A DNA stretch of 44,226 nucleotides from the UHGV virus genome UHGV-0346409. One strand, 5' to 3'. The notes beneath the pieces are model-generated. The model was not told the origin of the DNA. It made no database searches and saw only the letters and a list, made by a program, of their open reading frames with translations. Source of the stretch: a virus. Both the position numbers and the translations under genes were made by a program. Below, one piece after another: positions 2,474 through 17,139 of the stretch (position 1 is the first letter of the stretch; each line of letters begins with the position of its first letter).

Positions 2474-4692
2474 GCTGTTTGCTCCTGTGCGGCGGCGAGA
2501 GCGGCGAGGCGTTCGGTTTTGATTTCATTCAAACGGCGCAGGCGCGAACCAAGATAAGTTGAATACTCCTTATCACCTTTGGATTCTGCGGCTTTGCGGT
2601 GAACTTCTACTTCCCGCGCAATAAGGCCATAGACTTTATTAACTTCATTGGGGGTTACGGCTGCAGCCAGTGTTTTGGCAACACCTGAGAGTCGTTCATC
2701 CAGTTCTTCACGCAGTCGGGTAGCATCCTCTGCTTTCTCGCTTGCCTTCTTAATACCGTATTCTGTATTCAGCTCGGCGGTGTAGGCACTATCGTTATGC
2801 ATATCCATATAAACATCTGCCGCAAATCCCAGATGAGATAGTGCTTTGACGGTGGCATCAGTAAGAGACTTTTTGGAGGCCTCTTTTTCCATTACCAGTG
2901 CCCCTTTGTTATTTTTTGATATGTAATCCGTGTGGCCATATGACGGAATAAATCCTTTCACTCCGTTCCAGACGTACCAGAGATCTATCCGGATGGTGTG
3001 TACTGACAGGCAGAACAGGGAGCCGTCAGCATCCCTGACAGGTTTTTGTCCAATAATTTTCCCTGTCTGATCCTGTATAGGTTCAAGTAATGGCACACCG
3101 CGATCCACTCGCTCCTCCTTGATTTCAACTCCCCAACCAATGCCTTCCATTCCCAGCACTTCAGTCGCACGCATCAAAATATATTGTGCGCGTATGGAGT
3201 GCAGTCCTGCACCGTAATCATTATGTGTGACATACGCAGGATCGGTCCGCTGAACGCGATTCCAGATAGCCAAATTTGCTTTGCTCTGGTCATCATTCAT
3301 TGCTGACAGATAATGCTCCATGCGAATTGATGCAGTTTTTTCCTCGGTATGGATCCGCTCAACCAGAGCGTCAACGTTCTGCACCAGGTCTTTTACCTGC
3401 TCGCTAAGTTTTTCTTGTGGAGGAGTCTCTTCTTCCAGGATAACAGTTACAGATTCCCGCTGTGATACGGCGTTATTTTCTGGTACGCCATACACATGGC
3501 GGGGCGTGACAAACTGCTCACGCAACTGCTGCAAACTACGCTCTCCAGCATTTGCTGCTTCGCTTTTTTCGCCCTGATTTGAGGGGGGTTCTGACATCAT
3601 CCCATCGATTGAGAATCGCCCGCCGCCGTGGTTGGTGACTTTTACATCACCCTTTGGTGCTGCGTCCTTTGGCTTCTCTTCAACAGCATTTGCATCACGC
3701 TGCCCGTTAGCTTGCAGCCAGTTGTCGATGTGACTGCGCAGGGATTGCGGGAAATGGTACGTGTCTTTTGCGGGGGCACTCTGAACGACACCGAATACGG
3801 ATGCCCGGTCATAGGAAAGGATCTGATCCGTTGTGCGCAAGGCCATTGACCAGCGTTTAAAATCCTCCCGATCCTGGCTGATTATTTCGTCTGCCGCTTT
3901 CAGGACGCTGGGGGTGATTTTTTCCGGGCCAACGGGTAACAGAGCGCAGGCAATTTCACGATCCAGTGTAGCGTGAGTCTGTTTGTAAGGACGTGCGGAT
4001 GCTGTTTCTGGTTTTACCTCCGGCAGCATTTCATCGCGTTTACCGGGATTCTCTACCCATTTTTTTATAAATTTGGAGATAGTCCAACTGGTCGGGTTTT
4101 GTTCCTGGGTATCGCAACTTGCCAAAATTGCATGTACCAGATTATTCAATCCAGCAATATGCATGTACTCGATGGGCTTACACGCCACCATGGCATCAAG
4201 AACGATGCGGTTAAACGCGTCAACCTCATCCTCACTGTCAGTATCACTGTTGTCGAGCATCTCCAGGTATTCACGCGTCTGCGCAAGCAATTCACTGTTG
4301 ACTTCGTTGGCGTCGTGGCTGAACAGCAGAACGGCGGCGAATCGTTCACGAGCCGGCAGTTTCATCAGGTCGTTAACCTGTGCGATATCTGCTGAACCGC
4401 TATCTACAACGGGGGTGTTAACTACCCATTTTTCGCCATCAAAACTGTGTTCTGTGGCGAACGTCTCATCAAACTCACCAACGCCTGGGCGCGGTTGGCC
4501 CGGGGCATCTTCCCAGATTTTAGGTTTGAAATAGTTGTCGCCGTGGTCAGGGTAGGCTTCCCACAATTTGCCGATGATGATGTTCTCGGCAACTTTTTTG
4601 TTAGGGGCGTCGATGGCGATGGCCAGCGCCGGGATCGCGCCGTTTTTGAGCGCGCCTTTTTTCGCTTCTAACAAGCCGTTAAAAATGGTCAT
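2470..4692 (-). CDS. Large recombination-module protein; C-terminal Rad52/Sak-like single-strand-annealing domain, N-terminal two-thirds unassigned
   Basis: 740-aa ORF. The C-terminal segment ...IRAQYILMRATEVLGMEGIGWG...KKSLTDATVKALSHLGFAADVYM resembles the Rad52/Sak fold signature. ATGA overlap with the Gp157 gene. Confidence 0.6.
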   Translation of the reverse strand: MTIFNGLLEAKKGALKNGAIPALAIAIDAPNKKVAENIIIGKLWEAYPDHGDNYFKPKIWEDAPGQPRPGVGEFDETFATEHSFDGEKWVVNTPVVDSGSADIAQVNDLMKLPARERFAAVLLFSHDANEVNSELLAQTREYLEMLDNSDTDSEDEVDAFNRIVLDAMVACKPIEYMHIAGLNNLVHAILASCDTQEQNPTSWTISKFIKKWVENPGKRDEMLPEVKPETASARPYKQTHATLDREIACALLPVGPEKITPSVLKAADEIISQDREDFKRWSMALRTTDQILSYDRASVFGVVQSAPAKDTYHFPQSLRSHIDNWLQANGQRDANAVEEKPKDAAPKGDVKVTNHGGGRFSIDGMMSEPPSNQGEKSEAANAGERSLQQLREQFVTPRHVYGVPENNAVSQRESVTVILEEETPPQEKLSEQVKDLVQNVDALVERIHTEEKTASIRMEHYLSAMNDDQSKANLAIWNRVQRTDPAYVTHNDYGAGLHSIRAQYILMRATEVLGMEGIGWGVEIKEERVDRGVPLLEPIQDQTGKIIGQKPVRDADGSLFCLSVHTIRIDLWYVWNGVKGFIPSYGHTDYISKNNKGALVMEKEASKKSLTDATVKALSHLGFAADVYMDMHNDSAYTAELNTEYGIKKASEKAEDATRLREELDERLSGVAKTLAAAVTPNEVNKVYGLIAREVEVHRKAAESKGDKEYSTYLGSRLRRLNEIKTERLAALAAAQEQTA

Positions 4693-11611: not shown

Positions 11612-12406
11612 ATGACAACTCAAGTATCCGCAGCAGCCATCTCCCCGATTATCCACAACCAACTTCCCGTCCTCACCACCGAATTACTCGCGAATCTCTA
11701 TGGCACAGAGCCGGATTACATTCGTAAAAACCATAACCGGAACTCAGAGCGATTCGTGGTCGGGAAGCATTACTTTTTGCTCGAAGGTGAGGAGTTGCGC
11801 GAATTTAAGCACAGCATGTCTTTAAGACCTCCTGTGAAAATCGCCAGAAATGTCCGCTCTCTCATCCTCTGGACAGAACGCGGCGCAGCTCGCCATGCCA
11901 AAATGCTGGAAACAGAACAGGCCTGGGAAGTTTTCGAAAAGCTGGAAGATTGTTATTTTAGCCAGCGTCCAGAGAGGCGGAGTACAACCACCGATGACCG
12001 CACTCCCTTACGTGATGCCGTTAATATGCTGGTCGGTAAGAAAGGCATGATGTATCCCGATGCCTACACCATGATTCACCAACGTTTCGCCGTCTCTCAC
12101 ATAGAACAACTGTCACAGACGCAAATGTTAGAGGCGATTGAATACATCCACTGCCTGCTACTCGATGAAAATCAGCCAACCATTCCAGATTTTTCTTTTA
12201 TCACCACTATCAAAAATGGAAAAGTGACCAGGATGCGCCATGTTGCCAAAGGCGAACATCTGATGACGTTTGACGCTTTCAAAGAGATCGCTGAGCGGGC
12301 AGGGTATCTGGTGATCCACAGCGACAACCTGCGAAGTATGACGCTGGATAAATTGATGGTAATGGGGAAAAAGTCGGTTGTATCCGTTGCTGATTCAGCA
12401 TTTTGA
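11612..12406 (+). CDS. ORF6N-domain protein, antirepressor-like regulator
   Basis: The N-terminal segment LPVLTTELLANLYGTEPDYIRKNHNRNSERFVVGKHYFLLEGEEL fits the ORF6N pattern. RBS is AAGGAAA. Confidence 0.65.
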   Translation: MTTQVSAAAISPIIHNQLPVLTTELLANLYGTEPDYIRKNHNRNSERFVVGKHYFLLEGEELREFKHSMSLRPPVKIARNVRSLILWTERGAARHAKMLETEQAWEVFEKLEDCYFSQRPERRSTTTDDRTPLRDAVNMLVGKKGMMYPDAYTMIHQRFAVSHIEQLSQTQMLEAIEYIHCLLLDENQPTIPDFSFITTIKNGKVTRMRHVAKGEHLMTFDAFKEIAERAGYLVIHSDNLRSMTLDKLMVMGKKSVVSVADSAF

Positions 12407-12435
12407 CAGGTTGAATGTTTGGCGCGGTTATACTC

Positions 12436-12515
12436 TATTTGCGCTTAAAAAGGTATTTAGTCACAACCAGCACGAGGCCGAATACTCTGTCAAAGTACCG
12501 CCCATGTAAAACTGT
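12436..12515. repeat. Diverged copy (5 substitutions, 1 indel) of the 3' end of the 2-TM gene at 16037..16117; frameshifted gene remnant
   Basis: Aligned by eye. The minus strand would read ...QFYMGGTLTE, then a 1-bp deletion, then VFGLVLVVTKYLFKRK-stop. Confidence 0.8.
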
Positions 12516-12583
12516 TACGTATGTACTTGATGACTAAGCTGGCACCAGGTTAACACCAGGCGCCAGCTTGAAGGAAACTTCAG

Positions 12584-13507
12584 TTATTGGTTTCTGAGGA
12601 AAGCGATTCTTGAAAGGGTCATTTGCGTCTGGCAGTCGACCATTTTCTTGACTTCAGCATCTGTTCCCTGCATTGAAACTTTACCGCACATAGCATCCTT
12701 AGTTTTGATCCACTGACGCTGAGAAGGCAGCAACTCTTTTTTCTTCGCCGGCGTTAACCTGCCCCAGACTGTATTCAAATCAGAGTCAGCATTCGCAAAT
12801 GCCATTCGGGACTGATCAAGGCTTTCAGCTTTTTGCGGCTGAAGTTGTGCCTGCCTCTCTATTTGCTTCTCCGCCTCATACCTGGCCTGTTCCTGTGCCC
12901 TGAGTTGCACCTGTTGTTCCGCTTCAATTTGACTCTGTTGGGCATCCTTAGCCTGCTGGATTTTCTGCTGCTCAACGATCGGGTTGATAATGGAAAGCGA
13001 TGTCAGTAAAGCGGCGCCCACTGATATCGGATTATCAGAAGAGGTTTTTACAAAAACGTTTTTCTGATCGTCGGTCGCCTGCACGGTGTAGGTGATACGT
13101 TTTGAAAAGGCGTTTGCGTTGTTCTCCAAAAACAGATTTTCCATTTGCTTATCGAGATTACGATTAAAATTCTTTCGGTAAGCATCAGAAAGCTGGATGT
13201 ACTCGTTCGCAGGTAGAGTCATCGTCACGGTCCCTTCACAAGTTTTCATTGTGCTGCCCGTGTCACTTGATGTTGTGGAGATTTCAGAGACGGCTAGTTT
13301 GATCTTGTCCAGTGTGCTTCGTTTGGTCTGATTAGTGACATCAGGGTATTTATCGACCTGTTCAGAGAGTCCTTCATAAGCAGATTTTTTTAATAAATCC
13401 ATGAGAGCTGATTGGGTCATTTCCGAAGAACAACCGATCTCATCTTTTTTGTTATCACAGCCTGTAAGGGCAATGGCGAGTAAGAGTACTGAGTATTTTA
13501 ATCTCAT
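12584..13507 (-). CDS. Lipoprotein with C-terminal DUF1311 (LprI-like) domain
   Basis: Lipobox LLAIALTGC, a Q/E-rich coiled middle, and the C-terminal segment LNTVWGRL...QRQWIKTKDAMCG typical of DUF1311. Confidence 0.72.
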   Translation of the reverse strand: MRLKYSVLLLAIALTGCDNKKDEIGCSSEMTQSALMDLLKKSAYEGLSEQVDKYPDVTNQTKRSTLDKIKLAVSEISTTSSDTGSTMKTCEGTVTMTLPANEYIQLSDAYRKNFNRNLDKQMENLFLENNANAFSKRITYTVQATDDQKNVFVKTSSDNPISVGAALLTSLSIINPIVEQQKIQQAKDAQQSQIEAEQQVQLRAQEQARYEAEKQIERQAQLQPQKAESLDQSRMAFANADSDLNTVWGRLTPAKKKELLPSQRQWIKTKDAMCGKVSMQGTDAEVKKMVDCQTQMTLSRIAFLRNQ

Positions 13508-13647
13508 GAATTCCCTTTAGAGTAAGGATTGGTTTTTAAGACGCGGTCTGTAATCAGTTCCGAGAGCTACAGTAAACAACGCTGAGCACTGAACGCATCA
13601 CAGGCAAGGTAAAAGGTGATATCGGCAAAGGCTGTGAAACCTTTAAT

Positions 13648-13848
13648 TCAACAGATGGGAACGGTATGCACAGGATCCTGTAACGACGCTCCCAAAACCG
13701 GAAACCTGTAAGGCATGTTTTCGCTGCTGAACTTAATATACGAACCTGCACTATCATGAACATATTTTATATCGTTATACCCCGAGTGATTGTGCCCGGC
13801 AATGGATAGTGTCCTGGAGGAACTATTTCTACTGTAAAAGGTAGACAT
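13648..13848 (-). pseudogene. Possible 3' fragment of a metallophosphoesterase-like gene
   Basis: The GHNH ... DSAGS spacing is reminiscent of the C-terminal motifs of calcineurin-like phosphoesterases. There is no N-terminal part, and an overlapping second frame (13554..13763) suggests decay. Confidence 0.2.
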
Positions 13849-14133
13849 TTAATTTCAGTGTGGAATTATTCCCTGCTGTTAATAACCATGGCTCTATATG
13901 GCACCGAGCGGACTAGTTAACTTGCCTGAAAGCCGCTATGAGTGAGGAGCGAATATTGGCACGATAGGATACCTGAACCATTTTTTGGACATGCGCTAAA
14001 AGCGAATGATTAGTTTTATCGGAATATTTACAGTATACTTACAAGGCAAGCTTGGCGTACCGTCTTGGGCGAGATTGCTTAAATTATTTTGTGGATATAT
14101 CATTCAAACAAAAGATAATAAAATGAGGTTGTT

Positions 14134-14331
14134 ATGTCATATATTCGCGTAGAGAAAGATGGCCTTCAGTATGAAGCAGAATACTTCCGTGAAGAGGATA
14201 TGGTCACAGTCTTTGGGGTTAGAGGAGGGCATTCCAGCGTGGTTCTAAATGGAATGACAGAAGTCGCGGCTGCTCGTACTGCGTTACGAAATCTTATTAG
14301 AGAAAATCAGGTTGATCCTCTAACTGATTAA
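14134..14331 (+). CDS. Hypothetical small protein
   Basis: 65-aa ORF with a GAGG RBS, in the AT-rich island. Confidence 0.45.
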   Translation: MSYIRVEKDGLQYEAEYFREEDMVTVFGVRGGHSSVVLNGMTEVAAARTALRNLIRENQVDPLTD

Positions 14332-14535
14332 AAATAAGCCATCTTAACTGAGAGCATATTTTGATATAATTTAGATTAAATCTATTTTGAAGGTTAGTTT
14401 GGGATGAGAAGATTACATCAAAACCGTTATTACTAGCAATAAGTTGTGTAAATCAAATAATACATAATCAGGTGGTAATATATACTAAGCGTAGTAAAGT
14501 TTTTATATATTCCTGTAACTTTGTGAGAAACTTCC

Positions 14536-15201
14536 ATGAAAGCCGACAACTTAAGAATTATAGAGAATGGCAAATATGTTTTCGATATGTTCTTGGATAC
14601 TGGTGAATTTTACTATACAAGTCATGCCTTTGACACGAGAGAAGATGCAAAAAGCTGGATGGAAGAATGGCAGATTTGGGCAAATAATGTATCGAGTGGG
14701 AAAGTAAGTAGTATTTATTATATTTTACAAGTGCCTGATACTTGGGCCGGTTCTTCAGATAAAAATAACCCTTACTCGGGACTTTATGTGAAAATAGGGC
14801 GTTCCAATAATGTGCTAAAAAGGTTGTCTAACCTGCAGACAGGTGCATTTGGTCAATTAATATTACACGCTTTGGAACCAGGTGGTTCAGAAAAAGAAAA
14901 CTATCTTCATGAAAAATTTAGCAACGAAAGACGTCAAGGTGAATGGTTTGTTTGTACTAAGGAACTTACCAAGCATATATTTACAACATGGTTTAAAAAC
15001 AAAATGCTCCCACCAGAACATCAAATAAAAATAATGCAGCTCGCAGAAAGAATAGGTATTTATTCGCATGTTCATACACTAATGGGGGGGAAGCCAGACT
15101 TAGTAAACCCATCTATTAGTGAACCTTGGGAATGCGAAAAATATGTTTTGGTTGATATGATTTATAGCTCTTTAGCAAAGCAAGTTAATCATAAAAAATA
15201 A
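14536..15201 (+). CDS. T5orf172 (MUG113, GIY-YIG-like) domain protein
   Basis: LYVKIGRSNNVLKRLSNLQTG...ENYLHEKFSNERRQGEWF matches the T5orf172 signature KIG.T.N...R...LQTG...E..LH..F...R..GEWF. Confidence 0.7.
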   Translation: MKADNLRIIENGKYVFDMFLDTGEFYYTSHAFDTREDAKSWMEEWQIWANNVSSGKVSSIYYILQVPDTWAGSSDKNNPYSGLYVKIGRSNNVLKRLSNLQTGAFGQLILHALEPGGSEKENYLHEKFSNERRQGEWFVCTKELTKHIFTTWFKNKMLPPEHQIKIMQLAERIGIYSHVHTLMGGKPDLVNPSISEPWECEKYVLVDMIYSSLAKQVNHKK

Positions 15202-15288
15202 AGTGTTACATTTTAACTATACAATTATTGATTCACTAATGAAGAGGTGATTTAGACGTATGAAGTTTTAATAAGCTCCAAGAATATT

Positions 15289-15433
15289 TTGTCATACATG
15301 GGTTAAAGAGTTATATAATAATATCTGCTTCTGGAACACAGCAGACAAGCACCTGCAGATAAAGGTCTGCTGAGAGCGAGAAGCGGATCATACGTTGGAA
15401 GTTGTTTAGGCAAATACGTTATAAACGTATTTG
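15289..15433 (+). promoter_or_regulatory. Candidate promoter (TTGTCA-17-TATATA) and structured 5' leader of the 134-aa gene
   Basis: Mutually exclusive hairpins: TCTGCT/AGCAGA (15324..15345) versus CAGCAGAC/GTCTGCTG (15339..15372). Also a perfect 10-bp-arm palindrome CAAATACGTT-ATA-AACGTATTTG (15411..15433). Confidence 0.4.
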
Positions 15434-15521
15434 ATTAAATTTACTTGGATCATAGTCTTCAATAACGCTTTATTATATTGTTTTTCATGCAGCAAACAGG
15501 TTCACAGGTAGGTAATAAGCT

Positions 15522-15926
15522 ATGAGTGGATGGAAAGAGCCTTTTACATTAGCAGAACAGATACAATTAGCATTAAATTTAGGTTATGAGGCTGTACCAG
15601 ATGAAGAGGCATATACTGGGGCATACTTCATTAAAGGTGGTAAGAAGTGGATCTTTAACATCATCGGTCTCAAAAAGACATTGAATATATCTTCAGATGA
15701 TGAACTAAGAGGGCAGGATTATGATGTTGATATGTATTTCGAAATTCGCCAAAATTGGGCACAATACCAAGATATGATCTTTGGAAGCGAAGATATCACT
15801 CCTTCACCTAAAAATGAACTTACTTCAATTTACCATGACCTGCAGGTAACGGATGAACCCAGGGAAATGGTGTATCTTTCTGATGGGATGTGGCTGGATC
15901 CCAACGGACGAATTGTACAACGATAG
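15522..15926 (+). CDS. Hypothetical acidic protein
   Basis: 134-aa ORF. By my count about 23 D/E versus 12 K/R. No recognisable family. Confidence 0.55.
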   Translation: MSGWKEPFTLAEQIQLALNLGYEAVPDEEAYTGAYFIKGGKKWIFNIIGLKKTLNISSDDELRGQDYDVDMYFEIRQNWAQYQDMIFGSEDITPSPKNELTSIYHDLQVTDEPREMVYLSDGMWLDPNGRIVQR

Positions 15927-16035
15927 CACTCGAACACACTCAGTAATCGTCTATAAGGCCAGCACTTGTTACTTGGTCATTTGGGGTTGCTGGTCTTCTC
16001 CATTAAATCGACTAAAGTCTGTTCCATAGAGAGAG

Positions 16036-16641
16036 TTACTTGCGTTTAAAAAGGTATTTTGTCACGACCAGCACGAGGCCGAATACCTCTGTCAAAGTAC
16101 CGCCCATGTACAACTGTAGTGTTAAATCCTCAAATTCCAGCTTACCTGCGCCGTCGGCAATAAATACACCATTCATTATCAGAAGTTGGCAAGCAAGGAT
16201 AATCAGGAACCATTTCCCGTATCGTTTTTTTAGAGCGATTTCTGCTTCAAAATCTTTGTTGTTGAGTTGTTTGCGCTCATGCTCGGTATCAAGTGAATTC
16301 ACCTGTTTCACAGATGTGAACTCGGTCAAGATTTTACTCTCAGTACGGGTGACTTGTTGAGAGGGTGTAACAGTTGGAATTCTTTTGCTAGACGCAGCTA
16401 CAGCCATTTTGCGAGCTTCGGCAGCTCTTTTTCTGGCTATTCCGCGAATACGGACAGCCGTTTTTTTGGGGGCGTGCGAAACCTTTGGCTGAGGTGAAGT
16501 TTCGTCAGGAGACTGAACCGGGGTTTCATCGTCCCCCGGCTCAACCTCTTCTGCTAACTGACGGTGTAGGTTGAGGGAATCCTTCAGTCGGCGTGCAACT
16601 TCCTGTTTGAAACGGCTGTTAAAATCGTCATCCGATGGCAT
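16036..16641 (-). CDS. Membrane protein: charged, low-complexity N-terminal region plus two C-terminal TM helices
   Basis: 201 aa. The hydrophobic segments are WFLIILACQLLIMNGVFIA and TLTEVFGLVLVVTKYLF. It sits 9 nt downstream of the ImmA/IrrE gene. Confidence 0.7.
   Translation of the reverse strand: MPSDDDFNSRFKQEVARRLKDSLNLHRQLAEEVEPGDDETPVQSPDETSPQPKVSHAPKKTAVRIRGIARKRAAEARKMAVAASSKRIPTVTPSQQVTRTESKILTEFTSVKQVNSLDTEHERKQLNNKDFEAEIALKKRYGKWFLIILACQLLIMNGVFIADGAGKLEFEDLTLQLYMGGTLTEVFGLVLVVTKYLFKRK
16037..16117. repeat. Intact partner of the repeat at 12436..12515 (3' end of the 2-TM gene)
   Basis: Aligned by eye; roughly 93 percent identity by my count. Confidence 0.8.
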
Positions 16642-16650
16642 TCTAAAGCG

Positions 16651-17139
16651 TTACCCCAACCTCAAGTTCTTTAAACGATAAGTCATCGCATCGTCAGATA
16701 CGCCAAAATAATGCGCCATTATATAACTTGGTTGGCCGTCAGCGTGCAGTTTTCTGACCTCATCAACCGGCATCAGAAGTTCTGCTGCGAACTTGTTCGC
16801 AAAAATTTCATCAGGATGCGTTCCGGCGCTTGCGGTTTCGCCACGTAAATCAACGTACTCATATTCATCACTATGCGATGCTTGCCGGGCGATGTAATGC
16901 CCCAACTCATGCCCACATGAAAAACGTTGACGAACTTTGTTGTCATCACTGTTTAGAAAGATCGCTGGATCTTGATCTTTTTGTTTAATCAGTGCGCCAG
17001 AAACTTTCCCAGGAAGATCGGTAATAAAAACATCTAATCCCATGTCGTGAGCAATTTTCGCTGGATCAACAGGGAAACCACGCCCGCACCAGAACGTGTC
17101 CAGCACTCGCCGGGCGTGCTCTCTTGGGTTGGTAGCCAT
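16651..17139 (-). CDS. ImmA/IrrE-family (DUF955, M78-like) zinc metallopeptidase, stand-alone without HTH
   Basis: HELGH motif in SCGHELGHYIARQ with a downstream ...FANKFAAELLMP. GGAGGAG RBS. Confidence 0.8.
   Translation of the reverse strand: MATNPREHARRVLDTFWCGRGFPVDPAKIAHDMGLDVFITDLPGKVSGALIKQKDQDPAIFLNSDDNKVRQRFSCGHELGHYIARQASHSDEYEYVDLRGETASAGTHPDEIFANKFAAELLMPVDEVRKLHADGQPSYIMAHYFGVSDDAMTYRLKNLRLG

What the first reader, a model, noticed from the sequence alone, without database searches (positions are those of the whole stretch)
12436..16117. Diverged 80-bp direct repeats bracket a 3.5-kb cargo block; one repeat is a frameshifted relic of the 2-TM gene's 3' end
The segment 12436..12515 aligns with 16037..16117, with 5 substitutions and one 1-bp indel by my count. 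The right copy is the last roughly 25 codons plus the stop of the intact 201-aa membrane gene. The left copy would encode the same C-terminus (QFYMGGTLTE / VFGLVLVVTKYLFKRK) but is frameshifted and has no upstream gene body.

Everything between the copies is visibly AT-rich compared with the phage backbone:
- the DUF1311 lipoprotein;
- a phosphoesterase-like fragment;
- the 65-aa ORF;
- the T5orf172 protein;
- the acidic 134-aa protein.

This looks like the scar of a cassette exchange. Recombination between two diverged alleles of the membrane gene would have trapped foreign cargo next to the ORF6N gene. That marks the locus as a hot spot for accessory or defence gene turnover.
Basis: seen in the sequence. 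Interest (0 to 1): 0.6.

Follow-up and report, generated by a model that had tools for sequence, protein, structure and literature searches.

The report
Orphan gene-end repeat flanking prophage cargo
An 80-base leftover of a membrane-protein gene sits 3.6 kb from the intact gene in an E. coli lambda-like prophage, and related genomes show the two copies have recombined to delete or stack accessory and anti-phage genes; this is a clear example of known phage mosaic evolution, not a new kind of element.

Summary
The repeat is real: 12436-12515 against 16037-16117, 92.6% identity, BLAST E = 4e-27. The right copy is the last 26 codons plus stop of the 201-aa gene upstream of which ImmA lies. The left copy is an orphan with a stop codon, a 1-bp deletion and no gene body.

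Five of the six substitutions are silent (P about 0.003-0.009 under random substitution). The repeat encodes the most conserved segment of the protein family.

The block between the copies is composite, not one cassette:
- ORF6N, relic, LprI and about 300-450 bp further are kept in every LprI-bearing relative fetched.
- Only about 13.8-16.0 kb turns over. It is 36% GC and ends 20 bp past the 2-TM stop codon.
- At least six alternative gene sets occupy the locus. They include PDC-M25, HEC-08 and a DUF262 protein.

The repeats recombine:
- One of 452 E. coli genomes (GPEC172) has ORF6N directly next to 2-TM/ImmA. Its single copy is a left/right chimera, so this is a secondary deletion.
- Escherichia whittamii has a right/left chimera that stacks two cargo blocks.
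- Other relatives carry orphan relics with no 2-TM gene at all.

Verdict: observation confirmed, interpretation partly supported, new member of a known kind, moderate interest.

The parts
11612..12406 (+). ORF6N-domain (antirepressor-like) gene. It is the left neighbour of the relic and is itself optional in some relatives.
   Evidence: Pfam ORF6N 1.2e-18. RefSeq annotates it as an ORF6N domain-containing protein. It is absent in ETEC1738.
12435..12520 (-). Left copy: an orphan relic of the 3' end of a diverged 2-TM allele. It has a TAG stop at 12435-12437, a 1-bp deletion near 12485, and a TAA nonsense codon at 12515-12517. There is no gene body.
   Evidence: It occupies the same position in all LprI-bearing relatives fetched.
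12584..13507 (-). LprI/DUF1311-family lipoprotein gene. It is a conserved resident of the block, not variable cargo.
   Evidence: Pfam LprI 5.4e-8. It is kept in SK1144, C41, AVS0747, E. whittamii and the IMG/VR contigs.
13508..13951 (.). Conserved non-coding or decayed segment upstream of LprI. The left breakpoints of the variable slot lie here: 13786 in C41, 13903-13908 in ETEC1738 and SK1144, and 13951 in AVS0747.
   Evidence: No Pfam match for the stop-to-stop translations.
13952..16013 (+). Variable cargo slot, 36.1% GC. In this window it holds a 65-aa ORF (14134-14331), a T5orf172/MUG113 GIY-YIG-like protein (14536-15201) and an acidic 134-aa ORF (15522-15926).
   Evidence: Composition. 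Pfam MUG113 6.4e-10 and T5orf172 4.4e-7. The same cargo occurs in 18 of 5426 E. coli genomes. Relatives carry other genes here.
16014..16035 (.). Native 3' flank of the 2-TM gene. Homology with relatives resumes here, so it marks the right edge of the variable slot.
16036..16117 (-). Right copy: the last 26 codons plus TAA of the intact 2-TM gene.
16036..16641 (-). Intact 201-aa membrane-protein gene ('2-TM'). The family has no Pfam or PADLOC match. Its C-terminal ~29 aa are nearly invariant across genera.
16651..17139 (-). ImmA/IrrE (Peptidase_M78) metallopeptidase gene, lying directly upstream of the 2-TM gene in the same operon.
   Evidence: Pfam Peptidase_M78 7.7e-18. PADLOC capP 2.4e-25. 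The ImmA then 2-TM pairing is conserved in other prophages.

Best explanation
The window is an E. coli lambdoid prophage. Its accessory region lies between the replication genes and the Q antiterminator gene. In that region the last ~80 bp of the ImmA-linked membrane-protein gene occur twice: once as the real gene end, and once as an orphan relic next to ORF6N.

Inferred: the relic is what remains of a second, diverged but once-functional allele. That allele lost its body in an old rearrangement that placed the LprI module, and whatever followed it, between ORF6N and the surviving 2-TM/ImmA operon.

Shown: because these 80 bp encode the most conserved part of the protein, they persist as a patch of nucleotide homology. 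Ordinary homologous recombination uses this patch.
- Recombination within one genome deletes everything between the copies (GPEC172).
- Recombination between different prophages, right copy against left copy, stacks cargo blocks in tandem (E. whittamii).
- It also leaves chimeric copies and further orphan relics (ETEC1738, EC28).

Shown: current gene turnover is concentrated in a smaller AT-rich slot, about 13.8-16.0 kb. That slot abuts the stop codon of the 2-TM gene. In relatives it holds candidate or validated anti-phage systems.

Inferred: the enzymes are host RecA/RecBCD or phage recombinases. The relic itself has no function.
For: Repeat statistics.

Two functional alleles: 5 of 6 left/right substitutions are silent or stop-preserving. 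P(>=5 of 6) is 0.003-0.009 under random substitution with kappa 1-4.

Conserved patch: the C-terminal 29 aa are nearly invariant across Klebsiella, Enterobacter, Salmonella, Serratia and Plesiomonas homologues. The rest of the protein is about 45-50% identical.

Old, single origin: left copies in the window, C41, SK1144, E. whittamii and 11 IMG/VR contigs share the same inner boundary and left-specific bases. The left module (ORF6N to mid) is about 92% identical between the window and SK1144. The 2-TM/ImmA side is 98-99% identical.

Deletion: GPEC172's flanks are 99.9% identical to SK1144's. Its single copy equals SK1144-left for offsets 0-70 and SK1144-right from offset 42, so the crossover fell in a 29-bp identical stretch.

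Accretion: the left copy in E. whittamii, with 300 bp of upstream cargo tail, equals the GF131-type right copy up to offset 22. It equals the window-type left copy from offset 9 onward. The result is PDC-M25 cargo | chimera | LprI | window cargo | right copy | 2-TM.

Orphan relics without a 2-TM gene: ETEC1738/L013 and EC28.

Alternative cargo:
- PDC-M25 A and B, E = 3e-157 and 5e-96.
- HEC-08, E = 1e-173. This family has been shown experimentally to defend (bioRxiv 10.1101/2024.01.29.577857).
- A DUF262, NsnA-like protein, E = 4e-41.

Homology-driven mosaic formation that tolerates diverged substrates has been demonstrated experimentally for lambdoid phages (PMC3945230).
Against: - The founding event cannot be reconstructed. 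No relative with an intact left-type allele and no donor of the LprI block was found.
- Left copies in ETEC1738 and E. whittamii carry the native 2-TM 3' flank rather than the ORF6N junction. The ancestral left junction is therefore uncertain.
- Lineage-specific changes inside the relics are also often silent. This is unexpected for a drifting pseudogene. It needs the extra assumption of repeated gene conversion from functional alleles, and the numbers are small.
- The sample is dominated by one clone. Roughly 400 of the ~450 genomes carry the SK1144/ST131 type, so event frequencies cannot be estimated.
- No experiment shows which recombination pathway acts.
- The window's own cargo has no convincing defence-family match.
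Confidence: 0.75

Rival explanations
1. Intragenomic duplication followed by drift. One 2-TM gene end was duplicated when the cargo inserted, as a long target-site or replication-slippage duplication. The two copies then diverged neutrally.
For: Direct orientation with the cargo in between. The relic carries clearly degenerative changes: a 1-bp deletion and a nonsense codon.
Against: - Five of six differences are silent or stop-preserving, P about 0.003-0.009 under neutral substitution.
- The sequences just outside the copies are unrelated. This is typical of different alleles or contexts.
- An 80-bp duplication is far longer than transposition target duplications.
- The intervening block is composite, not a single insertion.
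Confidence: 0.1
2. The ~80-110-bp '2-TM end plus 3' flank' is a dedicated cassette-boundary site. It would be recognised by a site-specific recombinase, as attC or dif sites are. That would explain why it recurs at cargo borders even where no 2-TM gene is present.
For: Orphan copies flank cargo in several independent layouts: window, ETEC1738 with two relics, EC28 with split pieces, and E. whittamii. Homology between relic types ends at nearly the same position, 2-TM nt 80-88. AVS0747 cargo contains an integrase-family fragment.
Against: - The mapped crossovers lie at different places inside the patch: offsets 42-70 in GPEC172 and 9-22 in E. whittamii. This is what general homologous recombination predicts.
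- Left breakpoints of the variable slot (13786, 13908, 13951) are not at a relic at all.
- The window locus has no recombinase. The only integrase in the first 8.7 kb is the prophage int at 269-1297.
- No inverted-repeat structure lies within the 80 bp.
- Conservation is explained by protein constraint. Distant alleles are only about 70% identical at the nucleotide level there.
Confidence: 0.07
3. The left copy is functional in its own right. It could be a small hydrophobic peptide gene, a terminator, or a regulatory RNA for ORF6N or LprI, and that function maintains it.
For: It is retained in about 430 E. coli genomes and 11 viral contigs at the same place. In the SK1144 lineage it is in frame and could encode a 23-aa peptide starting at the internal ATG. 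Substitutions show a silent bias.
Against: - It is frameshifted in the window, C41 and E. whittamii lineages.
- A stop codon lies immediately upstream and there is no recognisable start context.
- The consensus scan found no terminator- or promoter-like site at 12400-12580.
- It has been lost without apparent consequence in GF131 and GPEC172 and is truncated in EC28.
Confidence: 0.05

Closest known systems
Homology-flanked mosaic junctions of lambdoid phages, formed by 'relaxed' homologous recombination at short diverged sequences (De Paepe et al. 2014, PMC3945230)
   Same: Short patches of imperfect homology (80 bp, about 92%) lie at the borders of exchanged or deleted segments. Chimeric copies show crossovers inside the patch. 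The elements are temperate lambdoid prophages of E. coli.
   Different: Here the patch is an orphan fragment of a gene end that lies in cis with the intact gene. It therefore also drives intragenomic deletion and tandem stacking. The recombinase dependence (Red-beta/RecT/Erf against RecA) is untested, and no Rad52-like gene was identified among the proteins scanned.
Prophage- and satellite-encoded hot spots of anti-phage systems (Rousset et al. 2022, PMC9122126, for P2/P4)
   Same: The position is fixed between conserved genes, many alternative gene sets are low in GC, and several match defence or candidate defence families (PDC-M25, HEC-08, DUF262/NsnA-like).
   Different: This is a different phage group (lambdoid, between the replication genes and Q) with different flanking genes (ORF6N/LprI and 2-TM/ImmA). 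The cargo in this window (T5orf172 plus two unknowns) has no validated defence match. The hot spot is marked by a gene-fragment repeat.
Morons and the nin-region accessory genes of phage lambda (own knowledge)
   Same: Accessory genes sit between the replication and Q genes. Some are transcribed against the flow of phage early transcription and differ in base composition.
   Different: The ImmA/2-TM pair and LprI are not lambda nin genes. In other prophages the ImmA/2-TM pair sits next to int at the prophage edge, so it is itself a mobile two-gene module.
CapH/CapP (ImmR/ImmA-like) regulators placed next to defence operons
   Same: The ImmA here matches the PADLOC capP model (2.4e-25) and lies next to a slot that holds defence genes in relatives.
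   Different: The partner is a membrane protein, not an HTH repressor. The cargo converges on the operon instead of being divergently controlled. No regulatory link was tested.

Membership tests
Gene-fragment relic (pseudogenised 3' end) of the 2-TM gene family | Significant nucleotide similarity to the 3' end of an intact family member, in the same reading direction | tested here: met
   92.6% over 81 columns, E = 4e-27. Homology starts at the stop codon.
Gene-fragment relic (pseudogenised 3' end) of the 2-TM gene family | No gene body, plus disabling lesions | tested here: met
   Only 68 bp to the LprI stop. A 1-bp deletion and an upstream TAA. No relative has a full gene there.
Gene-fragment relic (pseudogenised 3' end) of the 2-TM gene family | Derived from a separate functional allele rather than from an in-place duplication | tested here: inconclusive
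   The silent-site bias of 5 of 6 (P 0.003-0.009) favours a separate allele. No intact left-type allele was found.
Recombination-generated mosaic junction (homologous recombination at short diverged homology) | Chimeric copies with a crossover inside the homology patch, and flanks that match two different parents | tested here: met
   GPEC172: left type for offsets 0-70, right type from offset 42. E. whittamii: right type to offset 22, left type from offset 9.
Recombination-generated mosaic junction (homologous recombination at short diverged homology) | Dependence on RecA or a phage Rad52-like recombinase | not testable with these tools
   Needs genetics. No Rad52-like domain was seen among the eight proteins scanned.
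Prophage accessory/defence hot spot | Same position between conserved flanking genes in related elements, with alternative gene content | tested here: met
   Window, SK1144, C41, AVS0747, GF131, ETEC1738, EC28 and E. whittamii carry different genes between ORF6N/LprI and the 2-TM end.
Prophage accessory/defence hot spot | Cargo includes recognised anti-phage systems | tested here: met
   True in relatives: PDC-M25 A/B at 3e-157 and 5e-96, HEC-08 at 1e-173, NsnA-like DUF262 at 4e-41. HEC-08 defence has been shown experimentally.
Prophage accessory/defence hot spot | The cargo of this window is itself a defence system | tested here: inconclusive
   T5orf172/MUG113 domain only. PADLOC hits are marginal, at E about 0.004. 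The 65-aa and 134-aa ORFs have no match.
Site-specific cassette system (integron-like) | Adjacent dedicated integrase and a structured recombination site, with junctions at one exact position | tested here: not met
   No integrase in the window locus. No inverted repeat in the 80 bp. Crossovers and breakpoints lie at several different positions.
Transposon or IS insertion with target-site duplication | Short identical direct repeats that abut terminal inverted repeats and a transposase | tested here: not met
   The repeats are 80 bp and only 92.6% identical. There are no terminal inverted repeats. The window block has no transposase.

The most novel reading that the evidence does not exclude
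The invariant 3' end of the ImmA-linked membrane gene, with its short 3' flank, may be more than an accidental homology patch. It could be a maintained docking sequence that lets lambdoid prophages capture, stack and shed defence cargo next to a CapP-like ImmA/2-TM module. That module might also sense infection or regulate the neighbouring cargo. The recurrence of orphan relics at cargo borders in genomes that lack the gene would then reflect selection for exchangeability. So would the silent-site pattern inside the relics.
Probability: 0.1. Interest if true: 0.6.

Novelty: new member of a known kind. Interest (0 to 1): 0.35.

Why it matters
This locus gives a concrete, base-resolved example of how a prophage accessory or defence slot is remodelled. 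An 80-bp leftover of a conserved gene end is enough for natural deletion of 3.4-3.6 kb of cargo and for tandem stacking of two cargo blocks from different prophages.

It also defines a practical search handle. The anchors are ORF6N/LprI on one side and the 2-TM/ImmA gene end on the other. They can be used to mine lambdoid prophages of Enterobacteriaceae for new accessory or anti-phage genes. Candidates include the uncharacterised T5orf172, 65-aa and 134-aa set in this window.

It does not reveal a new mechanism.

Tried and rejected
- **Ancestral empty site.** A synthetic ORF6N|2-TM junction query found one genome of 452. Its copy is a left/right chimera within an SK1144-type prophage that is 99.9% identical in the flanks. 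I read it as a secondary deletion, not an ancestor.
- **Intact left-type allele.** A left-specific 23-mer scan of IMG/VR returned 11 contigs. All are relics in the same ORF6N-relic-LprI context.
- **Donor of the LprI block.** tblastn of LprI against 50,697 phage records found nothing.
- **'Phosphoesterase-like fragment'.** Pfam gave no hit for the ORFs or stop-to-stop translations of 13508-14133 at E <= 10. The fourth query was a splice I made by hand and should be ignored.
- **Promoter and terminator scan of 12300-16200.** The counts were not above shuffled expectation and nothing lay at the relic.
- **Transposon, integron and chance-similarity readings.** All rejected; see the membership tests.
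- **First simulation run.** It timed out and was repeated.

Full report
**Observation**

Positions 12436-12485 match 16037-16086 at 92%, and 12485-12515 match 16087-16117 at 97%. The left copy lacks one base. BLAST scores the pair at 92.6% over 81 columns, E = 4e-27. A 44-nt core pattern gave no match in 100 shuffles of the window, and the window holds only two copies.

The right copy is the last 26 codons plus the TAA of the 201-aa ORF 16036..16641 on the minus strand. ImmA/Peptidase_M78 (16651..17139) lies directly upstream of that gene.

With the missing base restored, the left copy reads QFYMGGTLTEVFGLVLVVTKYLFKRK*. Homology begins exactly at the stop codon, TAG in the left copy and TAA in the right. 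Two codons further in, the left copy reads ACG TAA CAG where the family has T-L-Q. It therefore carries a nonsense codon as well as the frameshift. Only 68 bp separate it from the stop of the LprI gene, so there is no gene body.

**What the repeat encodes**

A search of 5.8 billion proteins found 48 homologues of the 201-aa protein, none with a Pfam domain. In the alignment the C-terminal 29 residues, LTLQLYMGGTLTEVFGLVLVVTKYLFKRK, are nearly invariant. This holds from Escherichia to Klebsiella, Enterobacter, Salmonella, Serratia and Plesiomonas. The rest of the protein is about 45-50% identical.

The repeat is therefore the most constrained patch of the gene. In distant alleles the nucleotide identity there is only about 70%. 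The constraint acts on the protein, and the left copy comes from a fairly close allele.

Of the six left/right substitutions, four are synonymous, one preserves the stop, and one is L to F. Random substitution gives at least five silent out of six with P = 0.003-0.009.

**Genomic setting**

The window is an E. coli lambdoid prophage. Its gene order is:
- integrase at 269-1297;
- an HTH repressor and YdaT;
- a replicative helicase;
- ORF6N;
- the block in question;
- 2-TM/ImmA;
- DUF1367, DUF1364 and Q.

The 5.8-kb locus is 100% identical in strain RM10042. It is more than 80% covered in 18 of 5426 complete E. coli genomes.

**The block is composite**

Every LprI-bearing relative fetched keeps ORF6N, the relic, LprI and a further 300-450 bp. 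These relatives are SK1144 (the ST131 type, roughly 400 genomes by the spread listing), C41, AVS0747, E. whittamii and the IMG/VR contigs.
- The relatives diverge from the window at 13786 (C41), 13903-13908 (ETEC1738 and SK1144) or 13951 (AVS0747).
- They rejoin it at 16014-16017, 20 bp past the 2-TM stop.
- GC content follows the same division: 36.1% in 13952-16013, 44.7% for relic+LprI+mid, and 50.6% for the backbone.
- The left module is about 92% identical between the window and SK1144. The 2-TM/ImmA side is 98-99% identical.
- All left copies share the same inner boundary and left-specific bases.

The relic is therefore old and belongs to the left module.

**Alternative contents of the locus**

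| Genome | Genes in the locus |
|---|---|
| Window type | 65-aa ORF, T5orf172/MUG113 protein, 134-aa ORF |
| SK1144 | a 232-aa protein |
| C41 | a 266-aa protein plus a transposase pseudogene |
| AVS0747 | four genes, including HEC-08/DUF3644 (E = 1e-173) and an integrase fragment |
| GF131 | a TnpB remnant plus PDC-M25 A and B (3e-157, 5e-96); no relic and no LprI |
| ETEC1738/L013 | a 196-aa protein plus an NsnA-like DUF262 protein (4e-41) |
| EC28 | a methyltransferase, a SMEK-domain protein and others |

HEC-08 has been shown experimentally to defend against phage (bioRxiv 10.1101/2024.01.29.577857). Defence function remains unproven for the cargo of this window, where PADLOC hits are marginal.

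**The repeats recombine**

Deletion. A synthetic junction query joined the ORF6N end to the 2-TM gene. It found one genome of 452, GPEC172, that matches across the junction.
- Its flanks are 99.9% identical to SK1144's.
- Its single copy equals the SK1144 left copy at offsets 0-70 and the SK1144 right copy from offset 42.
- The crossover therefore fell in a 29-bp identical stretch and removed the block between the copies.
- The 2-TM gene stayed intact because the SK1144 left copy has no frameshift.

The predicted 'empty site' thus exists, but as a derived state.

Stacking. In Escherichia whittamii the left copy, with 300 bp of upstream cargo tail, matches the GF131-type right copy up to offset 22. 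It matches the window-type left copy from offset 9 onward. The resulting order is ORF6N | PDC-M25 | chimera | LprI | window cargo | right copy | 2-TM. This is the product expected from a right-against-left exchange between two prophages.

Further relics. ETEC1738 carries two relics and no 2-TM gene; a 182-aa plus 226-aa module replaces the 2-TM body and ImmA. EC28 retains only the first 12 nt and the last ~30 nt of the patch on either side of a 5.3-kb cargo.

**Mechanism and rivals**

The scattered crossover positions point to ordinary homologous recombination at a short conserved patch. So do the non-relic left breakpoints of the variable slot, the lack of a local recombinase and the lack of an inverted repeat. 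A site-specific cassette system does not fit these features. Homology-driven mosaic formation that tolerates divergence has been demonstrated experimentally for lambdoid phages (PMC3945230).

The other rivals are also disfavoured:
- In-place duplication followed by drift is disfavoured by the silent-site bias.
- A functional left copy is disfavoured by the lineage-specific frameshift, by the upstream stop, and by its loss in GF131 and GPEC172.

The founding event remains unresolved. No intact left-type allele and no donor of LprI was found. Some left copies carry the native 2-TM 3' flank instead of the ORF6N junction.

**Comparison and verdict**

The closest known phenomena are two. One is the homology-flanked mosaic junction of lambdoid phages. 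The other is the prophage hot spot for defence genes, described for P2/P4 (PMC9122126). This locus is a well-resolved new example of both, in a different phage group and with different anchors. It is not a new kind of system.

The hot spot and the diverged-allele relic hold. The single trapped cassette and the ancestral empty site do not. Interest is moderate.

Noticed in passing
window 16054-16085 and 16900-16931; locus L022: The type I-E CRISPR array of E. coli JX21CE8 has two adjacent spacers that match this prophage 32/32. One lies inside the right repeat (the 2-TM gene end) and is preceded by an AAG PAM. The other lies in ImmA and is preceded by ATG. The left relic differs from the first spacer at two positions.
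   Followed up: partly
window 13476-13507; locus L021: A spacer found in the type I-E arrays of several E. coli strains (for example WCHEC005784) matches the first codons of the LprI gene. An ATG PAM precedes the match.
   Followed up: partly
window 16651-17139: The ImmA/IrrE peptidase matches the PADLOC capP model (E = 2.4e-25). CapP is the protease half of regulators found beside defence operons. Here its partner is a membrane protein rather than an HTH repressor.
   Followed up: no
loci L023-L032 (Klebsiella oxytoca and other E. coli prophages): The ImmA then 2-TM gene pair is a conserved two-gene module. In other prophages it sits at the prophage edge and converges on the integrase gene. 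The pair is therefore itself mobile accessory DNA.
   Followed up: partly
window 16036-16641 (protein residues 173-201): The C-terminal 29 residues are nearly invariant across at least six genera, while the N-terminal two thirds are highly variable in length and sequence. This suggests a conserved membrane-embedded interaction or effector segment of unknown function.
   Followed up: partly
L002 6724-7001, L006 5931-6203, L005 (reverse complement) 4126-4398, L007 11299-11576: A ~270-bp non-coding 'tail' lies immediately 3' of the 2-TM stop and contains a GGCCCTTTGATCAGGGCC hairpin. SK1144-, GF131-, AVS0747- and E. whittamii-type cargo all share it, and ETEC1738 has it at about 80% identity. The window keeps only its last ~22-30 bp. 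It may be a second recombination anchor or the native terminator of the gene.
   Followed up: partly
L006 3560-3739; L005 14664-14849: A remnant of an IS200/IS605-type TnpB (annotated as a zinc-ribbon pseudogene) lies where the PDC-M25 block replaces the last ~20 codons of ORF6N. This hints that an IS brought that cargo in.
   Followed up: no
window 14536-15201: The 221-aa T5orf172/MUG113 (GIY-YIG-like) protein, the 65-aa ORF and the 134-aa acidic ORF always travel together in the 18 E. coli genomes and in the IMG/VR contigs L009 and L018. None of the three has a known function.
   Followed up: no
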